DNA of 64,000 nucleotides from an uncultured Actinomycetota bacterium. GTDB taxonomy: Bacteria > Actinomycetota > Actinomycetes > JAHEKZ01. The translations under genes were made by a program, and so were the position numbers. The notes under the pieces were generated by a model. That model made no database searches and was not told where the DNA came from. It worked only from the letters and a program-made list of their open reading frames with translations. The stretch's first letter is position 1; every line of letters starts with the position of its first letter. The DNA lies in the NCBI GenBank assembly GCA_963829525.1, contig CAWHIJ010000003.1, forward strand, positions 1,088,001-1,152,000. Direction: 5' to 3'. Below are positions 29,085 to 37,059 of the stretch, piece by piece.

Positions 29085-31643
29085 TCAGACCAAGTCGGAC
29101 GCCTGTAGCAACCCAAGTTGGCGGGCGCGTCGGATCGCGTGGTCTCGATCGGCGACGTCAAGCTTGGCGTAGAGGCGACGGAGCCGGGTCTTGATCGTGT
29201 TGACCGAGACGGACAGCTGGTCGGCGATCTCTTGGTTCGTTGCTCTGCTCGGCAGCAACTCGACCAGCTGGATCTCCCCGGCACTGAGCGGGCTGGTGGG
29301 CTGGCGGTGACGGTCAGTTATGCCGTCGTCAGTCGACGTGCGCGGAGCGGCGCGCAGCAGTGATCGGAGACCCTCGTGCCCACGGCGTCCGGCAATGTCG
29401 TCGCCCATGACCCGTAGGCGTACCGAGATGTCGGACATGCAGCGCAGCAGTCCACTCTCGCTGGCCTCATCGGCAACGTCGAGCAACAGCTGCTGCGCTG
29501 AAGCGGTCGACCGCAGGGCCAAGGCCTCGGCGCGCAGGACGTCGAGCTCGACCGAGGCCCGTCGGGTCGTCGGGCTGAGCTTGTCGAGCCGGTCCAACCC
29601 CGATCCAGGACGGCGCAGCTGCGCAAGTCGCACCGCGAGCAGGTCTGCTTCCTGCCCGGCCGGAACTCGATCGAGCAGTCGCTCTGCGCGCACGGGATCG
29701 CCGATCGCGATGCGCAGCCGGATCTCGGTAAGCGCCACTTGGCGCCGCAACGGGCTACCAGGCGCCCGTCCGTCGAGCAGCTCGTGGGCGCTGCGTAGCC
29801 AGTCGAGTGCTTGGGCGATGTCGGACCTGGCTGCGGCAAGCCGCGCAAGTCCGACGAGCGCGAAGACGCCCAGCCCCGCGTGCGCCAGCCGTTGTGCCTG
29901 CTCTTGGGCACGGAGGACGTTGTACTCGCACGCCGCAAGGTCGTCGAGATCGAATGCCGCCATTGCCAAGGTGAGGCGACCCGCTGTGCCCTCGGCAGTA
30001 CCGGTGTCGATGCCTTCGCGCTCGGCGAACGTCACCGCCTCGGTCGCGAGCCTGTGGGCGTGACGGACGTCGCCTTCGGTGAGGGCGATCGCAGCCTTGA
30101 GCTGACGCAAGACCAGGTTGGCGAGTAGCGGTGACGGGGCCATGCCAGGCCTCGTTGCGTCCAAGACCGTTCTTGCCTCGACCACCTTGCCCATCCACAG
30201 CAGCGCACGAGCGACCAACAGCGGAGCGAAGTGGGGTCCGTTGCCCTCTTGGTCGTCACCGAACTGGGCCACTGCGGCAGCGGCATGTCGGTGCATGGCC
30301 TCAGGATCTGCCGCTGAACCGGCCACCGCCGCAGCGAGCAGATCCGCCTCTGCGAGCAGCCGGTGATGTCGAGCGGAACTGGCGCCTGCAGCCAGAAGGG
30401 CGTTCAGGCGCGACACAAGCGCATCGGCCTGCGCAGGGCTGCCACTGAGCATCTTCGCCCATCCCTCACGCAGCGTCAGCTCCGCCTCGTCGTCCAGTGC
30501 ATCAGTCGGCATGAGTTGGTACCACTGGAGAACGGCAGCGCCTTGACCCTTCTCGAACCAGGCGTTCTCGACCGAGTTGATCCGGGCGAGGGCGGCATTG
30601 ATCTGGCCGGCCCCGATGAGGTGCCTAATGTGGGCATCGTCATCACTGCGGGAGGCGTACCACTCGGCCGCATACGCATGGCGGGCGCGCTCGTCCGCGG
30701 GGGCCGGAGGACGGCGACGCAGAAACGCTGTGAGCATCGGCAGCCGTTCCCACTCCGCCGTGAGATCTGCGGACTGGACAGGCATGAGGTGTTGGTGGCG
30801 GTCGACGAGTTCGGACAGCACTCGGTCGGACCCGGTGGTTTGCCGCACTACATCGCACAGACCTCCGCTGAGCCGGTCCAGCACGGACGTGTCAACGAGG
30901 AGCCGCCGTTCACTTTCACCCAGGGTGCTCCACCAGTCACCCAGCAGGGCATCGCAGGCAGTCGTCCGCAGCCACATCTCCATCGTCGCGGCACCGCTGA
31001 TCTCCGACTGCACCAGTGCGGTGACGGCGGTGGGCCATCCGCCGATGAGAGCAAGGAGTGAGTCCACCTCGTGCGAGTCGCCGGTGAGGCGGTCGATCCC
31101 AATGGCTTCGGCGACTTCATCGGTGGTCCAGGCGAGTGCACCCTCGTCCAACACTTCAACAGGGCTGTTGCGCAGGTCCTCCCGAAGCGAGCGTTCCCCT
31201 CCGCGCGTGCTGATGGCGAGGCGCCCTTGCGGCGGAAGTGACCGGGCGACGTGCGCAAGAATCGCGAGACCGTCACGACTCGGCACGTCCAGGCAGTCGA
31301 CCACCAGCCAGAAGGGGCCCAGTGCGGCCCGCTCATGCAGAGCCGAGATGACGTCGTCCGGCTCGGCTGCCGTGGCCGGAGGTGGAGTGTCAGAGGGCAG
31401 ACCCCGAGCTGCAGAGAGCAGTCTTCGGGTGAGACGGTCGCTGGAGTCGGAGCGGTCGAGCGTCACCCAGATCGCCGTGGGATCTCCTGCGACCACGTTC
31501 TGCAGCAGCAAGGTCCGCCCGTACCCCGAAGCTGTGGACAAGATGCAGGTGGCCTGCGGTGGAGTTGCCAAGACCAGTTCGTGCAGGCGTGGCGGCGGAC
31601 CGCACAGTGAGGCGTCCGGATGGGTGGAGAAGCTGGTGGCCAC
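29085..31643 (-). CDS. MalT-like (STAND/TPR/LuxR) transcriptional regulator
   Basis: Degenerate P-loop ASGYGRTLLL, WVTLD, GWP, TSVLDRLSGGLCD and C-terminal LuxR HTH (TNQEIADQLSVSVNTIKTRLRRLYAKL); TACATT -10 box 6 nt before GTG. Confidence 0.9.
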   Translation of the reverse strand: MATSFSTHPDASLCGPPPRLHELVLATPPQATCILSTASGYGRTLLLQNVVAGDPTAIWVTLDRSDSSDRLTRRLLSAARGLPSDTPPPATAAEPDDVISALHERAALGPFWLVVDCLDVPSRDGLAILAHVARSLPPQGRLAISTRGGERSLREDLRNSPVEVLDEGALAWTTDEVAEAIGIDRLTGDSHEVDSLLALIGGWPTAVTALVQSEISGAATMEMWLRTTACDALLGDWWSTLGESERRLLVDTSVLDRLSGGLCDVVRQTTGSDRVLSELVDRHQHLMPVQSADLTAEWERLPMLTAFLRRRPPAPADERARHAYAAEWYASRSDDDAHIRHLIGAGQINAALARINSVENAWFEKGQGAAVLQWYQLMPTDALDDEAELTLREGWAKMLSGSPAQADALVSRLNALLAAGASSARHHRLLAEADLLAAAVAGSAADPEAMHRHAAAAVAQFGDDQEGNGPHFAPLLVARALLWMGKVVEARTVLDATRPGMAPSPLLANLVLRQLKAAIALTEGDVRHAHRLATEAVTFAEREGIDTGTAEGTAGRLTLAMAAFDLDDLAACEYNVLRAQEQAQRLAHAGLGVFALVGLARLAAARSDIAQALDWLRSAHELLDGRAPGSPLRRQVALTEIRLRIAIGDPVRAERLLDRVPAGQEADLLAVRLAQLRRPGSGLDRLDKLSPTTRRASVELDVLRAEALALRSTASAQQLLLDVADEASESGLLRCMSDISVRLRVMGDDIAGRRGHEGLRSLLRAAPRTSTDDGITDRHRQPTSPLSAGEIQLVELLPSRATNQEIADQLSVSVNTIKTRLRRLYAKLDVADRDHAIRRARQLGLLQASDLV

Positions 31644-31672
31644 GCCGCCAATGTAGGCGCATGAGCCTGTGG

Positions 31673-31689
31673 TCACCCGTCGAGGGTGA
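31673..31689. promoter_or_regulatory. TCACCC-GTCGA-GGGTGA site between the regulator and AI-2E genes
   Basis: Exact match to the consensus, in the divergent promoter region. Confidence 0.6.
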
Positions 31690-31741
31690 AGAGCCGGATG
31701 ACGACCCCTGGGCCCTACGCCAGCCTGGCACCGTCGTCTCC

Positions 31742-32941
31742 GTGAGTGATGTGGACTCTTTTCAGACGAGGGACGTCGAGCAGGCCCCGCCGTGGGTCAT
31801 GCCGGTCATCAGAGCCACCATCTGGCGAGTGATCTGGGTCGGCCTGGGGATGGCCGTATTGGTGCTGTCGTTGCTAAAGGCGCGCGGGCTGGTCGGCGCG
31901 ATCATTATCGCGATCTTCTTCAGCGTCGCGATGGACCCGGCCGTGACACACCTCAACGTCAGGCGTGGATGGCGCCGCGGTGTCGCGACCACGGTGATCG
32001 TCCTTTCGGTGCTCGTTGCTGTGGTGCTGCTGATCGCGGTGCTGGTCCCGGCGATGGTCACCGTCGCCGGCCAGATCGGGGATCGACTCCCTGGCTGGAT
32101 CTCGGGTGCGGAGAAGACATTCGGCATCACGATCGCGGATCCGGCAGGTTCGGGCAACCAGCTGAGTGACATGGTCAAGAAGTGGCTGCAGGACCATGGC
32201 AGCGCTCTGCTTGGGGTCGCGGGAAGCACCGCGGGGCTGGCATTTCAGGTCCTGACGATCCTGACCTTCACCTTTTACTTCACAGTGGACGCGCCGGCTA
32301 TCCGACGAGCGGTTCTCGGCCGCATCCCTCCGGAGCGCCAGGAGCGGCTCGGCTGGGCGTGGGACACCGCCATCCAGCAAACCGGCGGCTACTTCTACTC
32401 GCGTTTGCTGCTGCTGGTCATCAACGCGTCCCTCTTCTTCTTCGTGATGATCGCTGTCGGGACACCCTGGCTCGTCGCCCTGCCGCTCGCGCTGTTCCAG
32501 GGCTTTTTTGCAGAGTTCATACCGGTGGTCGGCACCTACATCGGTGTCGCTGTGCCCACGATCGTCGTGCTGGGCACGCAAGGGATCTGGCAGGCACTGA
32601 TCCTCGTGGCCTGGACCTTGCTCTACCAGCAGGTCGAGAACTACTTCCTCAACCCGCGCCTGAGCGCGAAGACGATGGAGATCAACGGCGGGGTCGCGTT
32701 CGGTGCCGCACTTGCGGGTGGCGCGGTGGCCGGGCCGATGGGTGCGTTCATGGCGATGCCTATGGCAGCCCTCATCACGTCGTTCGTGAAGCACTACGTG
32801 CGACGCTACGAGGTCACGTTCCGCTCGGCGTACGACGGTGACCTCGATGTCCCAGCGAATCGCCAGGATCGCTGCACACAGGGGAGCGATCTCCAGGCTA
32901 GGCAGCGCTCTGAGGTGGTTGCACGTCCCGACGTTCGGTGA
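31742..32941 (+). CDS. AI-2E family transporter
   Basis: AMDPAV, TGGYFYSR, EFIPVVGTYIG, YQQVENYFLNPRL, GAFMAMP. Confidence 0.9.
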   Translation: MSDVDSFQTRDVEQAPPWVMPVIRATIWRVIWVGLGMAVLVLSLLKARGLVGAIIIAIFFSVAMDPAVTHLNVRRGWRRGVATTVIVLSVLVAVVLLIAVLVPAMVTVAGQIGDRLPGWISGAEKTFGITIADPAGSGNQLSDMVKKWLQDHGSALLGVAGSTAGLAFQVLTILTFTFYFTVDAPAIRRAVLGRIPPERQERLGWAWDTAIQQTGGYFYSRLLLLVINASLFFFVMIAVGTPWLVALPLALFQGFFAEFIPVVGTYIGVAVPTIVVLGTQGIWQALILVAWTLLYQQVENYFLNPRLSAKTMEINGGVAFGAALAGGAVAGPMGAFMAMPMAALITSFVKHYVRRYEVTFRSAYDGDLDVPANRQDRCTQGSDLQARQRSEVVARPDVR

Positions 32942-32964
32942 CCGGGCGGCTATCGGCAAGGACA

Positions 32965-33149
32965 ACCCGCGGGCCCGGCATTGCTGCCGGTACACCGAGG
33001 GACATGTCTCGGCGCCCGCGGGTCGGGTGACTGCCTTGGACTCGCCGGCCGCCTCATGGCGCACCGGTGGGCCGTCAGTCGGCGGCTAGCTGGCAGCCAC
33101 CTCACGTGTCCTATGGCTTATCAAGCTTGGACCACCTCCCTTCTCGTAT
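32965..33149 (-). ncRNA. Candidate structured small RNA with an embedded 12-codon ORF
   Basis: Own -35/-10, RBS, several stems, a GCAA tetraloop, and G-U pairs that form only on the minus strand (see findings). Confidence 0.6.
33086..33124 (-). CDS. Putative micropeptide MISHRTREVAAS
   Basis: AAGGGAGG RBS, 10-nt spacer, then TTG ATA AGC CAT AGG ACA CGT GAG GTG GCT GCC AGC TAG. Confidence 0.4.
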   Translation of the reverse strand: MISHRTREVAAS

Positions 33150-33155
33150 CTGTCG

Positions 33156-33184
33156 ACGGTACGACGCACCCGATCGAAGCGCTA
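33156..33184 (-). promoter_or_regulatory. SigA-type promoter TAGCGC-N17-TACCGT
   Basis: TANNNT -10 box with a 17-nt spacer, about 13 nt upstream of the RBS. Confidence 0.45.
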
Positions 33185-33430
33185 GTCAGTTACCGGTTGG
33201 AGGACGCCGTGTCGGCCGCTTCCTGCTTGACGTCGGACTGCTGGATAGGTGCCACGCTGATGCAATGAGCAGCGGCGCCATTTGCGTTGTTGCTAGGCGA
33301 TACTGCCCCGACGCATCGCTCCAGGTCAGACCCCGACACGAGTTTGCGCATCACCTACGGGGGCGGGGGCACCTGTGCGCACATTTGTCTGAGTACTGGC
33401 GAGGCCGGAACCAGTTGTGGTGACCCGTCG

Positions 33431-35293
33431 CTAGACCAGTGAGTCAAGCCACGCCTGGTGCAGACCTGCGTAGCTGCCTTCGGTGTGCAAGAGCTCGGCA
33501 GGGCTTCCGCTCTCTTTGATCCGGCCTGCCTCGAGCACGACGACCCGGTCGGCGATCTCAACCGTCGAGAGACGGTGAGCGATGATGATCGCTGTCCGGT
33601 CGGCCAGGATCGTGCGCAGTGCGCGCTGCACCAGACGTTCGCTCGGGATATCTAACGACGAAGTCGCCTCGTCGAGGATCAGCACCGCCGGATCGGCAAG
33701 AAACGCCCTGGCGAACGCCACGAGCTGCCGCTGACCTGCGGACAGGCGCCCGCCGCGCTTGCCGACGTCGGTGTCGTAACCGTCCGGAAGAGCGGCGATG
33801 AAGTCATGCGCCCCGATAGCTCTCGCCGCATCCTCGACCGCCTGGTCCCCCGCCGAAGGGCGACCGAACCGGATGTTGCTGGCCACGGTGTCGGAGAAGA
33901 GGAAGTTCTCTTGGGTCACCATCACAACCGCCCGGCGCAGGTCCTCCTCGGCAAGATTGTGGAGGTCGACACCGTCCAGACGAACGGTGCCCGCCACTGG
34001 GTCGTAAAAGCGGGCCACCAGCCGTGCGACCGTCGTCTTGCCGGCACCGGTAGCGCCTACCAAGGCCACGGTCTGCCCAGCGGGAATGTGCAGGTTGAGG
34101 TCTGGCAGGACGTCGACCTCTTCGTAAGAGAACCGCACGTGGTTGAGATCGACGTCTCCACGGGCGCGGATGAGCGGCACGGGGTTGGTTGGCTCGGCCA
34201 CGGTCGAGGTCTCCTCGAGCACTCCCGACAGCTTCTCGAGGGCCGCTGTCGCCGACTGCAGGGAGTTGTAGAACATCGAGAGCTCCTGCATGGGCTCGAA
34301 GAACCGTCGGAGATAGAGCAGGAAGGCGGCGAGGACTCCGACCTCGACCTGCCCACCCATGACGCGGTAGCCGCCGTAGACCAGTACGACTGCGATCGTG
34401 ATGTTTCCGATGAGCTTGATCACCGGCGCGAATATCGCGACCAGCTTGAAGGCCCTCTCGTTGGCCCACCGGTATTCGTCGTTGAGCTGCTCGAAGATCT
34501 CCTGGTTGCGGCCCTCCCGGCGGAACGCCTGCACGGCGCGGATGCCGCCGAGCGACTCCACGAAGTGGACGATGACCAGGGCTACCGTCTCGCGGGTACG
34601 GCGGTAGGCGAGCGCGGAGTGATGGCGGAACCACCGCGAGATCATCAGGAGGAACGGGAAGCTGATCAGGGTGACCAGGCCCATTGGGAGGTCGAGGAAC
34701 AGCAGGATGGTCCCGACCGAGACCACGGAGAGCCCGGCAAGCACCAGGTCGTCGATGCCACCGTCAAGCAGCTCGCCAAGCGCGTCCACGTCACTCGTGA
34801 GCCGTGAGATGACGCGTCCGGAGGTGTACTTCTCGTGAAAGGCGGGGGACAGCCGCTGGAAGTGGTCGTACACCCGCGTCCGCAGGTCGTAGAGCACCGC
34901 CTGACCGATCCGACCGCTCGCCATGAGGAAGGCTCGCTTGGCGAGGTACTCGGTCATGGCCGCCACGACGAAGGCGATCGTGACCGTGATGAGGATGGTT
35001 GGGTCGTTGTCCTCGGCGATCGGAGCGATGCCGTTGTCGATGCCGACGGCCACTAGATATGGTCCCGCCATCGCCGCAGCGTTCTGTAGCAGGAGCAAGC
35101 CGATTGCGATCCACATCGGGCGTCGGTGTGGCTGCAGCAGACTCCTCAGCAGCCGACGGCTCCGCCCCCGCAACGCCTGCGTGACCTCGACGGTCAGATC
35201 GTCGTCGGAGGCGTCTAGGGCCACGCCACGCCAGCTGTGGCCCTCTGGGAGCTCGGAGTCGGTGAGCCGGTCAGACTCGATGGGTGTCGTCAT
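33431..35293 (-). CDS. ABC exporter, fused permease/ATPase (consensus subunit)
   Basis: GATGAGKT, LSAGQRQ, LILDEATS, IAHRLST. Confidence 0.95.
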   Translation of the reverse strand: MTTPIESDRLTDSELPEGHSWRGVALDASDDDLTVEVTQALRGRSRRLLRSLLQPHRRPMWIAIGLLLLQNAAAMAGPYLVAVGIDNGIAPIAEDNDPTILITVTIAFVVAAMTEYLAKRAFLMASGRIGQAVLYDLRTRVYDHFQRLSPAFHEKYTSGRVISRLTSDVDALGELLDGGIDDLVLAGLSVVSVGTILLFLDLPMGLVTLISFPFLLMISRWFRHHSALAYRRTRETVALVIVHFVESLGGIRAVQAFRREGRNQEIFEQLNDEYRWANERAFKLVAIFAPVIKLIGNITIAVVLVYGGYRVMGGQVEVGVLAAFLLYLRRFFEPMQELSMFYNSLQSATAALEKLSGVLEETSTVAEPTNPVPLIRARGDVDLNHVRFSYEEVDVLPDLNLHIPAGQTVALVGATGAGKTTVARLVARFYDPVAGTVRLDGVDLHNLAEEDLRRAVVMVTQENFLFSDTVASNIRFGRPSAGDQAVEDAARAIGAHDFIAALPDGYDTDVGKRGGRLSAGQRQLVAFARAFLADPAVLILDEATSSLDIPSERLVQRALRTILADRTAIIIAHRLSTVEIADRVVVLEAGRIKESGSPAELLHTEGSYAGLHQAWLDSLV

Positions 35294-37059
35294 GAGGCCG
35301 CCGCACCCTCGGCCGTCTGTGACAGGACAGCCCGGTATGAGGGTTCTGACCTCATCAGGTCGGCATGGGTCCCTACCGCCCGGATGCTCCCTGCTTCGAG
35401 CAGCGCGACTCGGTCGGCGAGGGCCACCGTCGAGGGACGGTGCACCACCAGCAGCGTCGTGGTGTCGGTGAGGACGCGGCGCAGCGCCCGCTCGACCAGC
35501 GACTCGGTGTGGACATCCAGTGCGGACAGCGGGTCGTCGAGGACCAGCACGGCTGGCTTGCTGATGACTGCCCTGGCCAAAGCCAGGCGCTGCCGCTGCC
35601 CCCCCGACAGCGACATGCCCTGCTCGCCGATCCGGGTGTCGAGACCCCAGGGAAGGTCGTACACGAACCCAGCCTGGGCCAGGCTGAGCGCCTGTTCGAC
35701 CTCGTCGAGAGTCGCGTCCGGGTAGCCGAGGGTCAGGTTCTCCCGGACGCTGGCAGAGAAGAGCGTGGTGTCCTCGAATGCGGTGGCGACCATTTGTCGG
35801 AGCGACGAGAGCTCGATATCTCTGACGTCGACGCCGTCGAGCATGACGCGCCCGGCTGTCACGTCGTACAGACGCGGTACGAGCGAGGTGAGGGTGGTCT
35901 TGCCACTTCCTGTGACGCCGACAATGGCAAGCGTCTCGCCAGGAGCAACGTCGAGATCGAGGTGTCGCAGCACCAGGGGAGAACCGTCGCCGTAGGAGAA
36001 GGAGACCGCTTCAAACCGGAGCCGTCCATTCGGCACGGAGAGAACCACGGCCCCTGGCCGGTCGGAGATCTCCGGCACGGTGTCGAACACCTCGTAAATG
36101 CGATCGGCTGCGGTCATCGCCTCCTGTCCGTTCGCGAGGATCCAGCCCAGGGCGTTCACGGGCCAGACCAGCATCAGCATCAGCGAAACGAAGGCGACCA
36201 GGTCGCCCAGCGTCATGAGGCCCTCGGCGACTGCGAGGGCACCGAAGAGCAGCGTTGCGCCCAACGTCAGGCTCGGGATGAGGTCGAGCAGAGACCAGAA
36301 GCGTGCGACGAGGACGGATTTGTGTACTGCCGAGTCGTGCAGAACACGAGCGCTGCCGCGGAAGGTCTCGCCAACGTGCTGCCTTCGACCGAACGATCGA
36401 ATCATCCGGACGCCAACAGCCGACTCCTCGACGAACGTCGCCAGGTCGCCCTGCTGGTCCTGCACCAGTCGTGCCGCACTGAGATAGGCGCGGCTGAGCC
36501 CCCGTGAGATGAGGAGTAGCGGAATGGCCGACACCGCCACCATGACGCCGAGGGGGAGGTAGAGGTGGATCAGGAGCGCCACGACCACGACGAAGGTGGC
36601 CACGTTGACGACCAGGAACACCAGGCCGAAGGAGAGGAAACGCCTGATGATCGACAGGTCGGTGGTGGCTCGGGACAGCAGCTGGCCCACCTGCCAGCGG
36701 TCGTGGAATGACACCGACAGGCCCTGCAGGTGAGCGTAGAGGTCGTTGCGTACCGCTGTCTCGACCCCCAGGGCGGCGTACGACTGCACCCAGCGACGGA
36801 TGAAAATGAGCAAGGCCTCGAGCACCCCGAGGAAGAGAGCCAACAAGCCGAGGGGCACGAGTCCGGCCCGGTCGCCGTCGGCGATGGGCCCGTCAACGAC
36901 GGATCGAATAATCAGGGGCACCATGATGCTCACGCCGACCGCAAGGGCAGCGGCGACTGTCATCAGCACCATCTGGCCCGTGTACGGGCGCACGTAGACC
37001 CGGATTCGCCAAAGGGAGTGCAGGCTGGACCAGCGGCCGTGAAGGGAGAGGAGCATCAC
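35290..37059 (-). CDS. ABC exporter, fused permease/ATPase (degenerate Walker B subunit)
   Basis: GVTGSGKT, LSGGQRQ, VLVLDDPLS, VHRPST; ATGA overlap with its partner; TACCGT -10 box 5 nt before GTG. Confidence 0.95.
   Translation of the reverse strand: MMLLSLHGRWSSLHSLWRIRVYVRPYTGQMVLMTVAAALAVGVSIMVPLIIRSVVDGPIADGDRAGLVPLGLLALFLGVLEALLIFIRRWVQSYAALGVETAVRNDLYAHLQGLSVSFHDRWQVGQLLSRATTDLSIIRRFLSFGLVFLVVNVATFVVVVALLIHLYLPLGVMVAVSAIPLLLISRGLSRAYLSAARLVQDQQGDLATFVEESAVGVRMIRSFGRRQHVGETFRGSARVLHDSAVHKSVLVARFWSLLDLIPSLTLGATLLFGALAVAEGLMTLGDLVAFVSLMLMLVWPVNALGWILANGQEAMTAADRIYEVFDTVPEISDRPGAVVLSVPNGRLRFEAVSFSYGDGSPLVLRHLDLDVAPGETLAIVGVTGSGKTTLTSLVPRLYDVTAGRVMLDGVDVRDIELSSLRQMVATAFEDTTLFSASVRENLTLGYPDATLDEVEQALSLAQAGFVYDLPWGLDTRIGEQGMSLSGGQRQRLALARAVISKPAVLVLDDPLSALDVHTESLVERALRRVLTDTTTLLVVHRPSTVALADRVALLEAGSIRAVGTHADLMRSEPSYRAVLSQTAEGAAAS

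What the first reader, a model, noticed from the sequence alone, without database searches (positions are those of the whole stretch)
32965..33184. Stand-alone structured RNA with its own promoter and an embedded 12-aa micro-ORF
Seen on the minus strand, in the gap between the convergent AI-2E and ABC genes. Promoter TAGCGC-N17-TACCGT (33184-33156), RBS AAGGGAGG (33142-33135), and ORF TTG..TAG (33124-33086) encoding MISHRTREVAAS. The start codon sits in a hairpin (GUCC-AA-GCUU-GAU-AAGC-CAUA-GGAC). A 10-bp stem, GGUGGCUGCC (33101-33092, inside the ORF) with GGCAGUCACC (33035-33026), encloses two sub-hairpins (GCCG..CGGC and CCGGU-G-CGCC-AUGA-GGCG-GCCGG). A three-way junction follows, closed by a perfect 10-bp stem (33023-33014 with 32974-32965). 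It carries GCCGAG/CUCGGU and CCGGCA-GCAA-UGCCGG, a GNRA tetraloop. Three G-U pairs and the GNRA loop work only on the minus strand. No same-strand gene lies downstream, so it is not a cis-leader. Inference: a translation-coupled sRNA or micropeptide/RNA system in which ribosome passage opens the long stem. I cannot assign it to an RNA family I know.
Basis: partly seen in the sequence, partly recalled or inferred. Interest (0 to 1): 0.85.

Follow-up and report, generated by a model that had tools for sequence, protein, structure and literature searches.

The report
Known sRNA carrying a micro-ORF
This is a copy of Ms_IGR-5, a small RNA of Actinobacteria that is already catalogued but has no known job; comparing it with over a hundred relatives suggests that ribosomes dock on an unusually long landing site and read a tiny 12-codon frame that runs through the RNA's own folds.

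Summary
The RNA is not unassigned, though. Window 32957-33149 (-) is a full-length match to Rfam RF02471, Ms_IGR-5 (90.5 bits, cut-off 45), and is single-copy in this 2.96-Mb, 65% GC genome.

- The 12-codon ORF has an in-frame ATG/GTG/TTG start in 136 of 137 homologs, against 18 of 137 in each control frame. Its stop codon sits at one fixed position in 137 of 137 (TAG, TGA or TAA).
- The ribosome-binding site pairs with all 16 terminal bases of the genome's own 16S rRNA. It is the only such site in the genome apart from the antisense strand of the rRNA gene.
- Stems P2 and P3 covary strongly.
- Every conserved codon is accounted for by RNA pairing, so ribosome transit, not the peptide, is probably what is selected.
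- Related copies occur in Acidobacteriota.

What the RNA does downstream is still unknown. Verdict: an ordinary member of a known but uncharacterised family, with features I found described in no paper searched.

The parts
33156..33184 (-). Promoter: -35-like TAGCGC (33184-33179), 17-nt spacer, -10 TACCGT (33161-33156). The inferred start is the A at 33149.
   Evidence: Sequence read. The same positions carry TTGnnn-17/18-TAnnnT followed by 6 nt and ACAC in the homologs printed. The E. coli-consensus scan finds nothing. The -35 is weak in this genus.
32957..33149 (-). Ms_IGR-5 sRNA (Rfam RF02471), full length.
   Evidence: cmscan gives 90.5 bits against a gathering score of 45, E = 8.6e-19, model positions 1-184 of 184. 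There is one copy in the genome. Metatranscriptome contigs from 4 studies cover about 32955-33140.
33129..33144 (-). SD1: a 16-nt complement (AGAAGGGAGGUGGUCC) of the whole 3' tail of the genome's own 16S rRNA, 14 Watson-Crick plus 2 G-U pairs.
   Evidence: The 16S 3' end was read. Of 7438 GGAGG sites in the genome, only this one and the antisense of the rRNA gene pair over all 16 nt; the next best pair over 14. Among 105 distinct homolog 5' regions, 83 pair over 16 nt and 21 over 15.
33086..33124 (-). Micro-ORF: TTG start, 12 codons (MISHRTREVAAS), TAG stop.
   Evidence: An in-frame start occurs in 136 of 137 homologs against 18 of 137 in each other frame. The stop is at a fixed position in 137 of 137 (TAG 121, TGA 9, TAA 7). 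The ORF is 12 codons long in 128 of 137. CM-found Acidobacteriota copies keep the frame with 11-19 codons.
33108..33132 (-). P1: GUCC (33132-33129, the 3' end of SD1) pairs with GGAC (33111-33108, ORF codons 5-6). The start codon lies in the loop.
   Evidence: 99.1% of cells are paired in 88 sequences, but the helix is essentially invariant: only G-C to G-U in 6 sequences. The loop interior is not structured beyond shuffles.
33097..33103 (-). SD2: an internal Shine-Dalgarno-like GAGGUGG, ending 8 nt before the stop codon. Its GGUGG is the start of the P2 5' strand.
   Evidence: The columns are invariant in alignment A1. The stop lies exactly 15 nt after the first G of GAGGUG in all 7 CM-found copies checked and in all 137 pattern-found copies.
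33026..33101 (-). P2: a 10-bp long-range stem (33101-33092 with 33035-33026) enclosing a variable apical domain (33091-33036).
   Evidence: 96.9% of cells are paired. 5 of 10 pairs show changes on both sides. 0 of 500 shuffles reach the observed values, and slid controls pair in 32-47% of cells.
32963..33025 (-). P3: a 12-bp closing stem (33025-33014 with 32974-32963) of a three-way junction. It is the likely intrinsic terminator. It contains P3a (33013-32994) and P3b (32990-32975, GCAA loop).
   Evidence: 96.2% of cells are paired and 11 of 12 pairs are compensatory. It is followed by a pyrimidine-rich tail (mean 6.2 of the first 8 nt in 108 homologs) and by true U-tracts in non-actinobacterial copies. 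P3b is lineage-specific.
33000..33004 (-). Pseudoknot partner: UGUCC in the P3a loop pairs with GGACA (33111-33107) inside the ORF. This is an alternative to P1.
   Evidence: GGAC goes with GUCC in 119 of 120 copies. GGAU goes with AUCC in 5 of 6. GGAAC goes with GUUCC in L018, and GACC with GGUC in L079 and, by eye, in L125, L148 and L145. The fifth pair is formed in 59 of 91 copies against 39.5 expected.

Best explanation
The locus is an independently transcribed copy of the conserved small RNA Ms_IGR-5 (Rfam RF02471), about 190 nt long.

Proposed mechanism:
1. Five nucleotides after its 5' end, the RNA carries a 16-nt sequence that can pair with the entire 3' tail of 16S rRNA.
2. A 30S subunit captured there must displace the short P1 helix (GUCC/GGAC), because that GUCC is part of the docking site.
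3. The ribosome starts at the TTG 4 nt downstream and translates 12 codons.
4. In doing so it passes through GGAC, which otherwise pairs either with the docking site (P1) or with the GUCC loop of the terminator domain (the pseudoknot).
5. It then passes through the 5' strand of the 10-bp P2 stem.
6. It stops at a codon whose position relative to P2 and to an internal Shine-Dalgarno-like GAGGUGG never changes.

Each round of translation therefore unfolds P1 or the pseudoknot, then P2, and transiently frees the conserved 3' strand (GGCAGUCACC). The peptide is probably a by-product.

Shown: family membership, the helices and the pseudoknot by covariation, conservation of the frame, and the 16S complementarity.
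Inferred: that ribosomes actually bind and translate in this organism, that unfolding is the purpose, and whatever the unfolded RNA then does (a regulatory target, stability control or ribosome sensing). None of that is known.
For: Membership:
- 90.5 bits against a cut-off of 45, full model length.
- Homologs in 22 of 41 relatives and in 44 of 151 genomes sampled across the phylum, nearly always one copy per genome.

Independent gene:
- A conserved promoter at a fixed distance.
- At least four different gene neighbourhoods.
- Published passages: RNA-seq validation in S. lividans (PMC8079986) and an sRNA transcription unit in S. avermitilis (PMC8780764).
- Metatranscriptome contigs from 4 studies whose 5'-side ends all fall at 33126-33140 (a weak hint only).

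Translation:
- Start in frame in 136 of 137 homologs against 18 of 137 in each control frame. The start is never CTG.
- The distance from docking site to start varies from 4 to 7 nt (1 nt in 3 copies), while the distance from start to stem is fixed. Length changes come in whole codons.
- The stop is at one position in 137 of 137 copies, as TAG, TGA or TAA.
- The same holds in copies found by the Rfam model alone, including 5 Acidobacteriota copies with 11-19 codons.
- Ribosome footprints on Ms_IGR-5 homologs in M. abscessus and M. smegmatis (PMC4974804, passage only).

Docking site:
- It is the only 16-of-16 complement of the 16S tail in the genome apart from the rDNA antisense.
- In homologs, positions opposite U vary A<->G, while the position opposite C stays G.

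Structure:
- P2 and P3 covary and are recovered de novo by RNAalifold.
- The pseudoknot covaries in three different ways.

Peptide not selected:
- Codons 5-12 all lie in P1, the pseudoknot, SD2 or P2.
- Codons 2-4 show no conserved residue apart from Ser in 66 of 113.
- Codons 11-12 change together with the P2 partner strand.
Against: - There is no direct evidence of transcription ends, ribosome binding or translation in this organism. The metatranscriptome contigs come from 97-98% identical relatives, could include DNA, and run 36-85 nt past P3.
- Published Ribo-seq signal could partly be a Shine-Dalgarno pull-down artefact.
- P1 never covaries, so it may not form. The invariance of GGUCC is explained by 16S pairing alone.
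- No target or output was identified.
- The RNA was found in only 2 of 13 other species of its own genus, so it is dispensable.
- Most homologs were collected with a pattern that fixed GGAGGTGGTCC and CGTGAGGTG. Invariance of those two motifs in that set is therefore by construction.
- Relatedness among the homologs inflates all counts.
- The 16S tail was read only in this genome and assumed for the others.
Confidence: 0.6

Rival explanations
1. It is a tiny mRNA whose product, the 12-residue peptide (consensus M-x-x-x-R-T-R-E-V-A-V/A-R/S), is the functional molecule. The RNA structure only tunes its expression.
For: The frame, start and stop are conserved. There is a very strong ribosome-binding site. 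Ser at codon 3 is encoded by both TCN (33) and AGY (32) among 113 distinct ORFs.
Against: Only E-V is shared with Acidobacteriota copies, and it is encoded by the invariant GAGGUG. Codon 7 is R, S or C across the family. Codons 11-12 follow the P2 partner strand. The 'wobble' of the Thr codon tracks the pseudoknot loop base. Synonymous sites CGT and GCT are frozen in 65% GC genomes. ORF length varies from 11 to 19 codons between phyla.
Confidence: 0.15
2. It is a classical non-coding base-pairing or protein-binding sRNA. The ORF and the Shine-Dalgarno-like sequences are incidental to conserved RNA motifs and are not used by ribosomes.
For: The family is filed as a non-coding sRNA. Every conserved ORF nucleotide also has an RNA-structure explanation.
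Against: RNA motifs do not explain why the first triplet is A/G/T-TG and never CTG. They do not explain why TAG is replaced only by TGA or TAA. They do not explain why loop length changes keep the frame, or why the control frames are closed in 119 of 137 copies. The 16-nt match to the 16S tail, including A<->G changes opposite U, also goes unexplained.
Confidence: 0.12
3. It is a leader-peptide transcription attenuator, or a read-through antisense regulator, that controls a neighbouring gene. Ribosome position on the micro-ORF would decide whether P3 terminates.
For: The architecture (short ORF, alternative pairings of GGAC, terminator) resembles attenuators. A convergent gene follows in many loci: PNPOx, or a THAP4-like haem-binding protein. 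Contigs run past P3.
Against: No same-strand gene follows in the window. The downstream gene family and its orientation differ between lineages. I saw no antiterminator pairing. The ORF has no run of a regulatory amino acid.
Confidence: 0.08
4. It is only the terminator or 3' UTR of the upstream ABC-transporter operon, or chance GC-rich pairing.
For: It lies 281 nt downstream of the ABC gene's stop on the same strand. The genome is 65% GC.
Against: There is a full-length Rfam match. The fold has z = -3.99. The RNA has its own conserved promoter. The same RNA sits next to unrelated genes elsewhere.
Confidence: 0.02

Closest known systems
Ms_IGR-5 (Rfam RF02471). First reported in Mycobacterium smegmatis by Li et al. 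2013, RNA 19:74; I saw that citation only in the reference list of PMC10454040. The paper itself is not held.
   Same: Full-length covariance-model match, same strand logic, same conserved blocks, one copy per genome.
   Different: Nothing sets this copy apart from the family. The differences are from the Rfam description. Rfam's consensus structure pairs GGUGGU with GCUGCC and leaves the conserved GCAGUCACC unpaired, whereas covariation supports GGUGGCUGCC with GGCAGUCACC. The family name says Actinobacteria, but copies occur in Acidobacteriota MAGs and genomes.
Dual-function sRNAs such as SgrS/SgrT, SR1/SR1P and VcdRP. I saw only search listings and abstracts of PMC12310071, PMC5013986 and PMC8672173.
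   Same: A small, independently transcribed RNA that carries a translated short ORF.
   Different: Those encode peptides of 29-43 residues with functions of their own, and the ORF and the base-pairing region are largely separate. Here the ORF has 12 codons, overlaps every conserved helix, and its peptide is not conserved as a protein.
The attenuator-derived sRNA rnTrpL with its leader peptide peTrpL in Sinorhizobium (PMC7968998; abstract only), and leader-peptide attenuators in general.
   Same: A very short ORF followed by alternative hairpins and an intrinsic terminator, released as a small RNA.
   Different: There is no downstream biosynthetic gene and no regulatory codon run. The ribosome-binding site is far longer than in any attenuator I know of (that comparison is from recall).
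Internal Shine-Dalgarno elements that act on elongating or terminating ribosomes, as in prfB and dnaX programmed frameshifting (recalled textbook knowledge, not checked here).
   Same: A Shine-Dalgarno-like GAGGUGG inside an ORF, at an invariant distance from the codon where the ribosome stops, with a stem-loop just downstream.
   Different: I saw no slippery sequence and no extended alternative frame. The downstream region varies in length and sequence.

Membership tests
Rfam RF02471 Ms_IGR-5 | Covariance-model score at or above the curated gathering score (45 bits) | tested here: met
   90.5 bits, E = 8.6e-19 over the whole window. Same hit in the whole genome.
Rfam RF02471 Ms_IGR-5 | Match covers the whole model and is not truncated | tested here: met
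   Model positions 1-184 of 184, no truncation.
Rfam RF02471 Ms_IGR-5 | Host is an actinobacterium | tested here: inconclusive
It is 65% GC. Its phylum-level relatives include the highest-scoring RF02471 carriers. Its 16S rRNA ends in CCUCCUUUCU. No taxonomic name was obtained.
Rfam RF02471 Ms_IGR-5 | Expressed as a discrete small RNA | tested here: inconclusive
   There is a conserved promoter and a terminator. RNA-library contigs of close relatives from 4 studies cover it, but contigs cannot show transcript ends or strand.
Dual-function (coding plus regulatory) sRNA | The ORF is translated | tested here: inconclusive
   Comparative signature is strong (136 of 137 starts, 137 of 137 stops). 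Ribo-seq signal is reported for homologs (PMC4974804). There is no direct test in this organism.
Dual-function (coding plus regulatory) sRNA | The peptide has a function of its own | tested here: not met
   There is no amino-acid conservation beyond codons fixed by RNA pairing, and ORF length is 11-19 codons across phyla. This is comparative evidence only.
Dual-function (coding plus regulatory) sRNA | The RNA regulates targets by base pairing | not tested
   No target search was made.
Leader-peptide transcription attenuator | A regulated gene follows on the same strand | tested here: not met
   The next gene in the window is convergent (AI-2E transporter, 31559-32941 on the + strand). Downstream genes differ between lineages.
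Leader-peptide transcription attenuator | Mutually exclusive terminator and antiterminator pairings | tested here: inconclusive
   GGAC has two alternative partners (P1 and the pseudoknot). Neither competes with the P3 closing stem.

The most novel reading that the evidence does not exclude
Ms_IGR-5 is not a conventional sRNA but a ribosome-engaging RNA device conserved across at least two phyla. It would capture the free 3' tail of 16S rRNA over its full 16 nt, be translated through a fixed-stop micro-ORF, and use that transit to switch between folds. In that way it could report or regulate the availability of free anti-Shine-Dalgarno tails or 30S subunits, or the speed of termination. The stop is TAG in 121 of 137 copies, against about 25% TAG among long ORFs of this genome. 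The stop is always 8 nt after an internal Shine-Dalgarno-like site.
Probability: 0.25. Interest if true: 0.8.

Novelty: new member of a known kind. Interest (0 to 1): 0.5.

Why it matters
The family was catalogued from a 2013 report, is found in roughly a third to a half of the Actinomycetota genomes sampled here, and has no assigned function. The comparative picture built here gives concrete, cheap experiments for an uncharacterised RNA in model strains such as M. smegmatis or Streptomyces. That picture comprises a full-length complement of the 16S tail, a frame-conserved 12-codon ORF whose peptide is not conserved, a corrected secondary structure, a covarying pseudoknot inside the ORF, and copies outside Actinomycetota. 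If ribosome transit is the signal, this would be a rare case of an sRNA whose working part is the act of translation itself. For this window specifically, it is an ordinary family member.

Tried and rejected
Tried with no useful result:
- The sigma-70 promoter and U-tract terminator scan of 32800-33500 found 0 sites. The promoter and terminator do not fit E. coli consensus rules.
I do not claim it. The alignment is poor in that variable region.
- The inner hairpin around the start codon is not conserved.
- The fifth pseudoknot pair was put in a wrong (gap) column. The four core pairs score 90.5% there because MAFFT shifts the loop in 16 rows. I rely on the motif-anchored counts instead.
- A link to pdxH and citrate synthase is rejected. 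It is present in only about 30 of 139 loci.
- The Gemmatimonadota copy (L125) has no companions. Only the seed genome among 101 sampled genomes matched, so it may be a mis-binned contig or a transfer. I do not count that phylum.
- L102 (Bryobacterales) gives no Rfam match, and its pseudoknot partner is missing.
- L032 was a false pattern hit.
- Literature: five searches found no paper describing the ORF, the 16S complement or the pseudoknot of Ms_IGR-5. The original paper (PMC3527728) is not held, and supplements are closed, so such a description may exist there or in Ribo-seq supplements.
- Read laying: regions without cover, and contig depths, are not used as evidence.
- No complex prediction, structure prediction or protein database search was made. 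A 12-residue peptide is below their limits.

Unpublished genomes:
- G025 (L004) and G033 (L009) are 2 of the 22 positives.
- G044 (L048) gives the 51.6-bit hit.
- G266, G282, G312 and G384 are 4 of the 44 positives.
- L004, L009 and L048 are 3 of the 137 sequences counted and are among those counted.
- They were left out of A1 and (L048 was not excluded). No sequence of theirs is quoted here.
Full report
**What is there**

- the two promoter hexamers, 17 nt apart
- an A at 33149
- AAGGGAGG
- a TTG...TAG frame of 12 codons (33124-33086)
- a perfect 10-bp stem, 33101-33092 with 33035-33026
- a three-way junction closed by a perfect 10-bp stem that extends to 12 bp (33025-33014 with 32974-32963)

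The 193-nt stretch folds to -98 kcal/mol against -80.1 +/- 4.5 for shuffles (z = -3.99).

The flanking genes are an AI-2E-family transporter on the plus strand (31559-32941) and two fused ABC permease/ATPase genes on the minus strand (33431-35293 and 35290-37059). The RNA therefore lies 281 nt downstream of the ABC genes on their strand and converges on the transporter gene.

**Identity**

cmscan of the whole window gives one hit above threshold. It is RF02471, Ms_IGR-5, at 32957-33149 (-), with 90.5 bits against a gathering score of 45, covering model positions 1-184 of 184. It is the only copy in the 2.96-Mb genome.

I read only passages of the relevant papers:
- S. lividans: the family member is validated by RNA-seq (PMC8079986).
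- S. avermitilis: it is one of two sRNA transcription units with an Rfam match (PMC8780764).
- M. smegmatis: IGR-5 overlaps ncMSMEG15794c (PMC10454040).
- M. abscessus and M. smegmatis: homologs show "significant ribosomal reads" (PMC4974804).

The founding paper (Li et al. 2013) is cited but is not held. None of the passages assigns a function.

**Distribution**

- The Rfam model matches 22 of 41 relatives, but only 2 of the 13 other species of the same genus.
- It matches 44 of 151 genomes drawn evenly from the phylum, 20 of them above the cut-off.
- It matches none of the 14 control genomes, which include Corynebacterium glutamicum.
Nearly all are Actinomycetota.
- That scan also returned Acidobacteriota MAGs (L079 Terriglobia, L102 Bryobacterales, L048), one Gemmatimonadota MAG (L125) and one Ignavibacteriales MAG (L142).
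- On these, the Rfam model scores 57.5 (L125), 51.6 (L048), 37.8 (L142) and 33.2 (L079) bits, and gives nothing for L102.
- Sampling the phylum of L079 gave 5 of 121 genomes with E <= 1e-5, none above the cut-off.
- Sampling the phylum of L125 gave only L125's own genome among 101.

I therefore accept Acidobacteriota as a second phylum and leave the others open. The non-actinobacterial copies have TTGACA-like promoters and true U-tract terminators.

**An independent gene**

In the homologs, a TTGnnn hexamer, 17-18 nt, TAnnnT, about 6 nt and then ACAC precede the ribosome-binding site at a constant distance.

The neighbours differ by lineage:
- a convergent pyridoxamine-phosphate oxidase followed by citrate synthase (about 30 of 139 loci)
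- a divergent GCV_T-type folate-binding protein with a class IV aminotransferase upstream and a convergent THAP4-like haem-binding protein downstream (19-28 loci)
- a same-strand metallo-beta-lactamase-fold or GNAT gene (14 loci each)
- ABC and AI-2E transporter genes in this window

No gene is constantly downstream, so it is not a cis-leader.

Metatranscriptome contigs from four studies (2-5 differences from the window) cover about 32955-33140. All four end at 33126-33140 on the RNA's 5' side, and they run 36-85 nt past P3 into unlike sequence on the 3' side. This is a weak hint for a start near 33149. It also shows that the 3' end is not settled.

**The micro-ORF is selected**

I took 137 homolog sequences that differ within their first 110 nt and anchored them on CGTGAGGTG.
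The other two frames do so in 18 of 137 each.
- The stop codon lies exactly 18 nt after the anchor start in 137 of 137 (TAG 121, TGA 9, TAA 7).
- The ORF has 12 codons in 128, 13 in 5 and 15 in 3.
- The distance from the ribosome-binding site to the start is 4-7 nt in 133 copies and 1 nt in 3, while the distance from start to anchor stays in whole codons.
- The one exception (L012) has ATT at the expected place (by eye).

Neither the start nor the stop was part of the search pattern. Seven copies found only by the Rfam model keep the frame with 11-19 codons, and their stop is always 15 nt after the first G of GAGGTG. These seven are L019, L021 and five Acidobacteriota loci.

In this genome TAG ends about 25% of ORFs of at least 400 codons, against 88% TAG in the family. 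I cannot separate a preference for a release factor from the RNA motif GCUAGC.

**The peptide is probably not the point**

Among 113 distinct 12-codon ORFs:
- Codons 7-9 are invariant at the nucleotide level (CGT GAG GTG), partly by construction of the search. CGT and GCT are frozen at wobble positions in GC-rich genomes.
- Codon 5 is NGG and codon 6 is ACN, which together give the GGAC strand.
- Codons 9-12 are the 5' strand of P2, and their changes are mirrored on the 3' strand.
- Codons 2-4 are AT-rich and variable. Ser at codon 3 (66 of 113) is the only preference.

Outside Actinomycetota only E-V, that is GAGGUG, is shared.

**The ribosome-binding site is extraordinary**

The genome's 16S rRNA ends in GGAUCACCUCCUUUCU. 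The RNA's AGAAGGGAGGUGGUCC (33144-33129) pairs with all 16 bases, by 14 Watson-Crick and 2 G-U pairs.

Of 7438 GGAGG sites on both strands of the genome, only this one and the antisense of the rRNA gene reach 16. Two sites reach 14.

In 105 distinct homolog 5' regions the run is 16 in 83, 15 in 21 and 14 in 1, assuming the same tail. The five bases upstream of GGAGG vary among purines where they face U, but stay G where they face C.

**Structure**

Alignment A1 holds 88 homologs (MAFFT; copies with a clean stem parse, thinned so that no pair is more than 88% alike; the two loci from unpublished genomes left out).
- P2 is paired in 96.9% of cells, with changes on both sides in 5 of 10 pairs.
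- P3 is paired in 96.2% of cells, with changes on both sides in 11 of 12 pairs.
- No shuffle out of 500 reaches the observed values, and slid controls pair in 32-47% of cells.
- RNAalifold finds the same helices unaided, plus an invariant 3-bp CAC/GUG helix at the 5' end.
- P1 (GUCC/GGAC) is 99% paired but invariant.
- Rfam's own consensus pairs different strands in the 5' half.
- P3 is followed by a pyrimidine-rich tail and by U-tracts in other phyla, so it is the likely terminator.

**A pseudoknot inside the ORF**

The P3a loop carries GUCC in 119 of 120 copies whose P1 3' strand is GGAC. When that strand changes, the loop changes with it:
- GGAU goes with AUCC in 5 of 6 copies, from Nocardioides-like genomes. 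This may be a single evolutionary event.
- GGAAC goes with GUUCC in L018.
- GACC goes with GGUC in the Terriglobia copy L079 and, by eye, in L125 and L148. GGACC goes with GGUCC in L145.

The base after GGAC, which is the "wobble" of the Thr codon, pairs with the base before GUCC in 59 of 91 distinct cases against 39.5 expected. G faces C in 30 of 34.

GGAC thus has two possible partners with the same sequence: the 3' end of the docking site (P1) and the terminator-domain loop (the pseudoknot). In the window these are 33111-33107 with 33004-33000.

**Mechanism proposed**

Shown:
- A conserved promoter, a full-length complement of the 16S tail, a frame-conserved ORF with a fixed stop, and a pseudoknot, P2 and P3 backed by covariation, plus an invariant P1.
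- The ORF overlaps P1, the pseudoknot and the P2 5' strand.
- The ORF ends 8 nt after an invariant internal GAGGUGG, whose GGUGG is sequestered in P2 by an anti-Shine-Dalgarno-like CACC.

Inferred:
- A 30S subunit docks on the 16-nt site and displaces P1.
- The ribosome translates 12 codons and melts the pseudoknot and P2.
- With the stop codon in the A site, its anti-Shine-Dalgarno tail can re-pair with GAGGUGG at a spacing of 5 nt from the P-site codon.
- For as long as it sits there, the conserved 3' strand GGCAGUCACC, and the junction with the terminator, are free.

What this achieves is not known. It could be target pairing, control of the RNA's own decay, sensing of free ribosomes, or sensing of termination speed. 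I put about 0.6 on [quoted passage not shown], and near certainty on family membership.

**Rivals**

- A functional micropeptide: 0.15.
- A purely non-coding sRNA: 0.12.
- An attenuator or antisense regulator of a neighbour: 0.08.
- A terminator or chance pairing: 0.02.

The evidence for and against each is given in its own section.

**Novelty and score**

Five literature searches found no description of the frame conservation, the 16-nt 16S complement, the pseudoknot or the Acidobacteriota copies. However, the founding paper and all supplements were out of reach. These features make an uncharacterised, widespread RNA directly testable, so I score interest at 0.5.

**Limits**

- The homolog set is dominated by sequences collected with a pattern that fixes two motifs.
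- Relatives are not independent.
- The 16S tail was read in one genome only.
- Several counts include a few loci from unpublished genomes, listed under Tried and rejected.

Noticed in passing
Own genus, genomes G001-G013: The RNA was found in only 2 of the 13 other species of the window's genus. Six of the genomes without a match are 91-99% complete. In other families of the class it was found in 14 of 21. This suggests recent, repeated loss, so the RNA is dispensable here.
   Followed up: no
L079, L145, L146, L148, L149 (Acidobacteriota); L125 (Gemmatimonadota MAG); L142 (Ignavibacteriales MAG): Copies of an RNA that Rfam labels 'Actinobacteria' occur outside that phylum. They keep the same promoter-to-ACAC spacing, docking site, fixed stop and P2, but have longer ORFs (11-19 codons) and U-tract terminators. 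In L146 the ATG follows GGUC directly.
   Followed up: partly
window 33086-33091 and 33036-33045; columns 79-87 and 196-207 of A1: The stop codon sits in a conserved internal loop: GCUAG on one strand faces GAAUCC (GAGUCC in the window) on the other. This loop does not form standard pairs. It may be a structured motif or a recognition site.
   Followed up: no
window 33146-33148 with 33133-33135: RNAalifold pairs the conserved 5' CAC (UAC in the window) with the GUG inside the docking site. The 3 bp are nearly invariant, with no covariation. This may explain why the first bases, ACAC, are conserved.
   Followed up: no
window 29085-31676 (-) and 31559-32941 (+): An 863-residue ORF with a C-terminal LuxR/GerE helix-turn-helix overlaps the listed start of the AI-2E transporter ORF by 118 nt in divergent orientation. 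One or both listed start codons are probably too far upstream.
   Followed up: no
L084 and L121 (Saccharothrix): Both carry a 3-nt insertion (an extra CGT-type codon) between GGAC and CGTGAGGTG. It lengthens the ORF by exactly one codon.
   Followed up: no
G285: One genome of the phylum sample has two matches to RF02471 on different contigs (43.9 and 41.1 bits). It is the only case of more than one copy seen.
   Followed up: no
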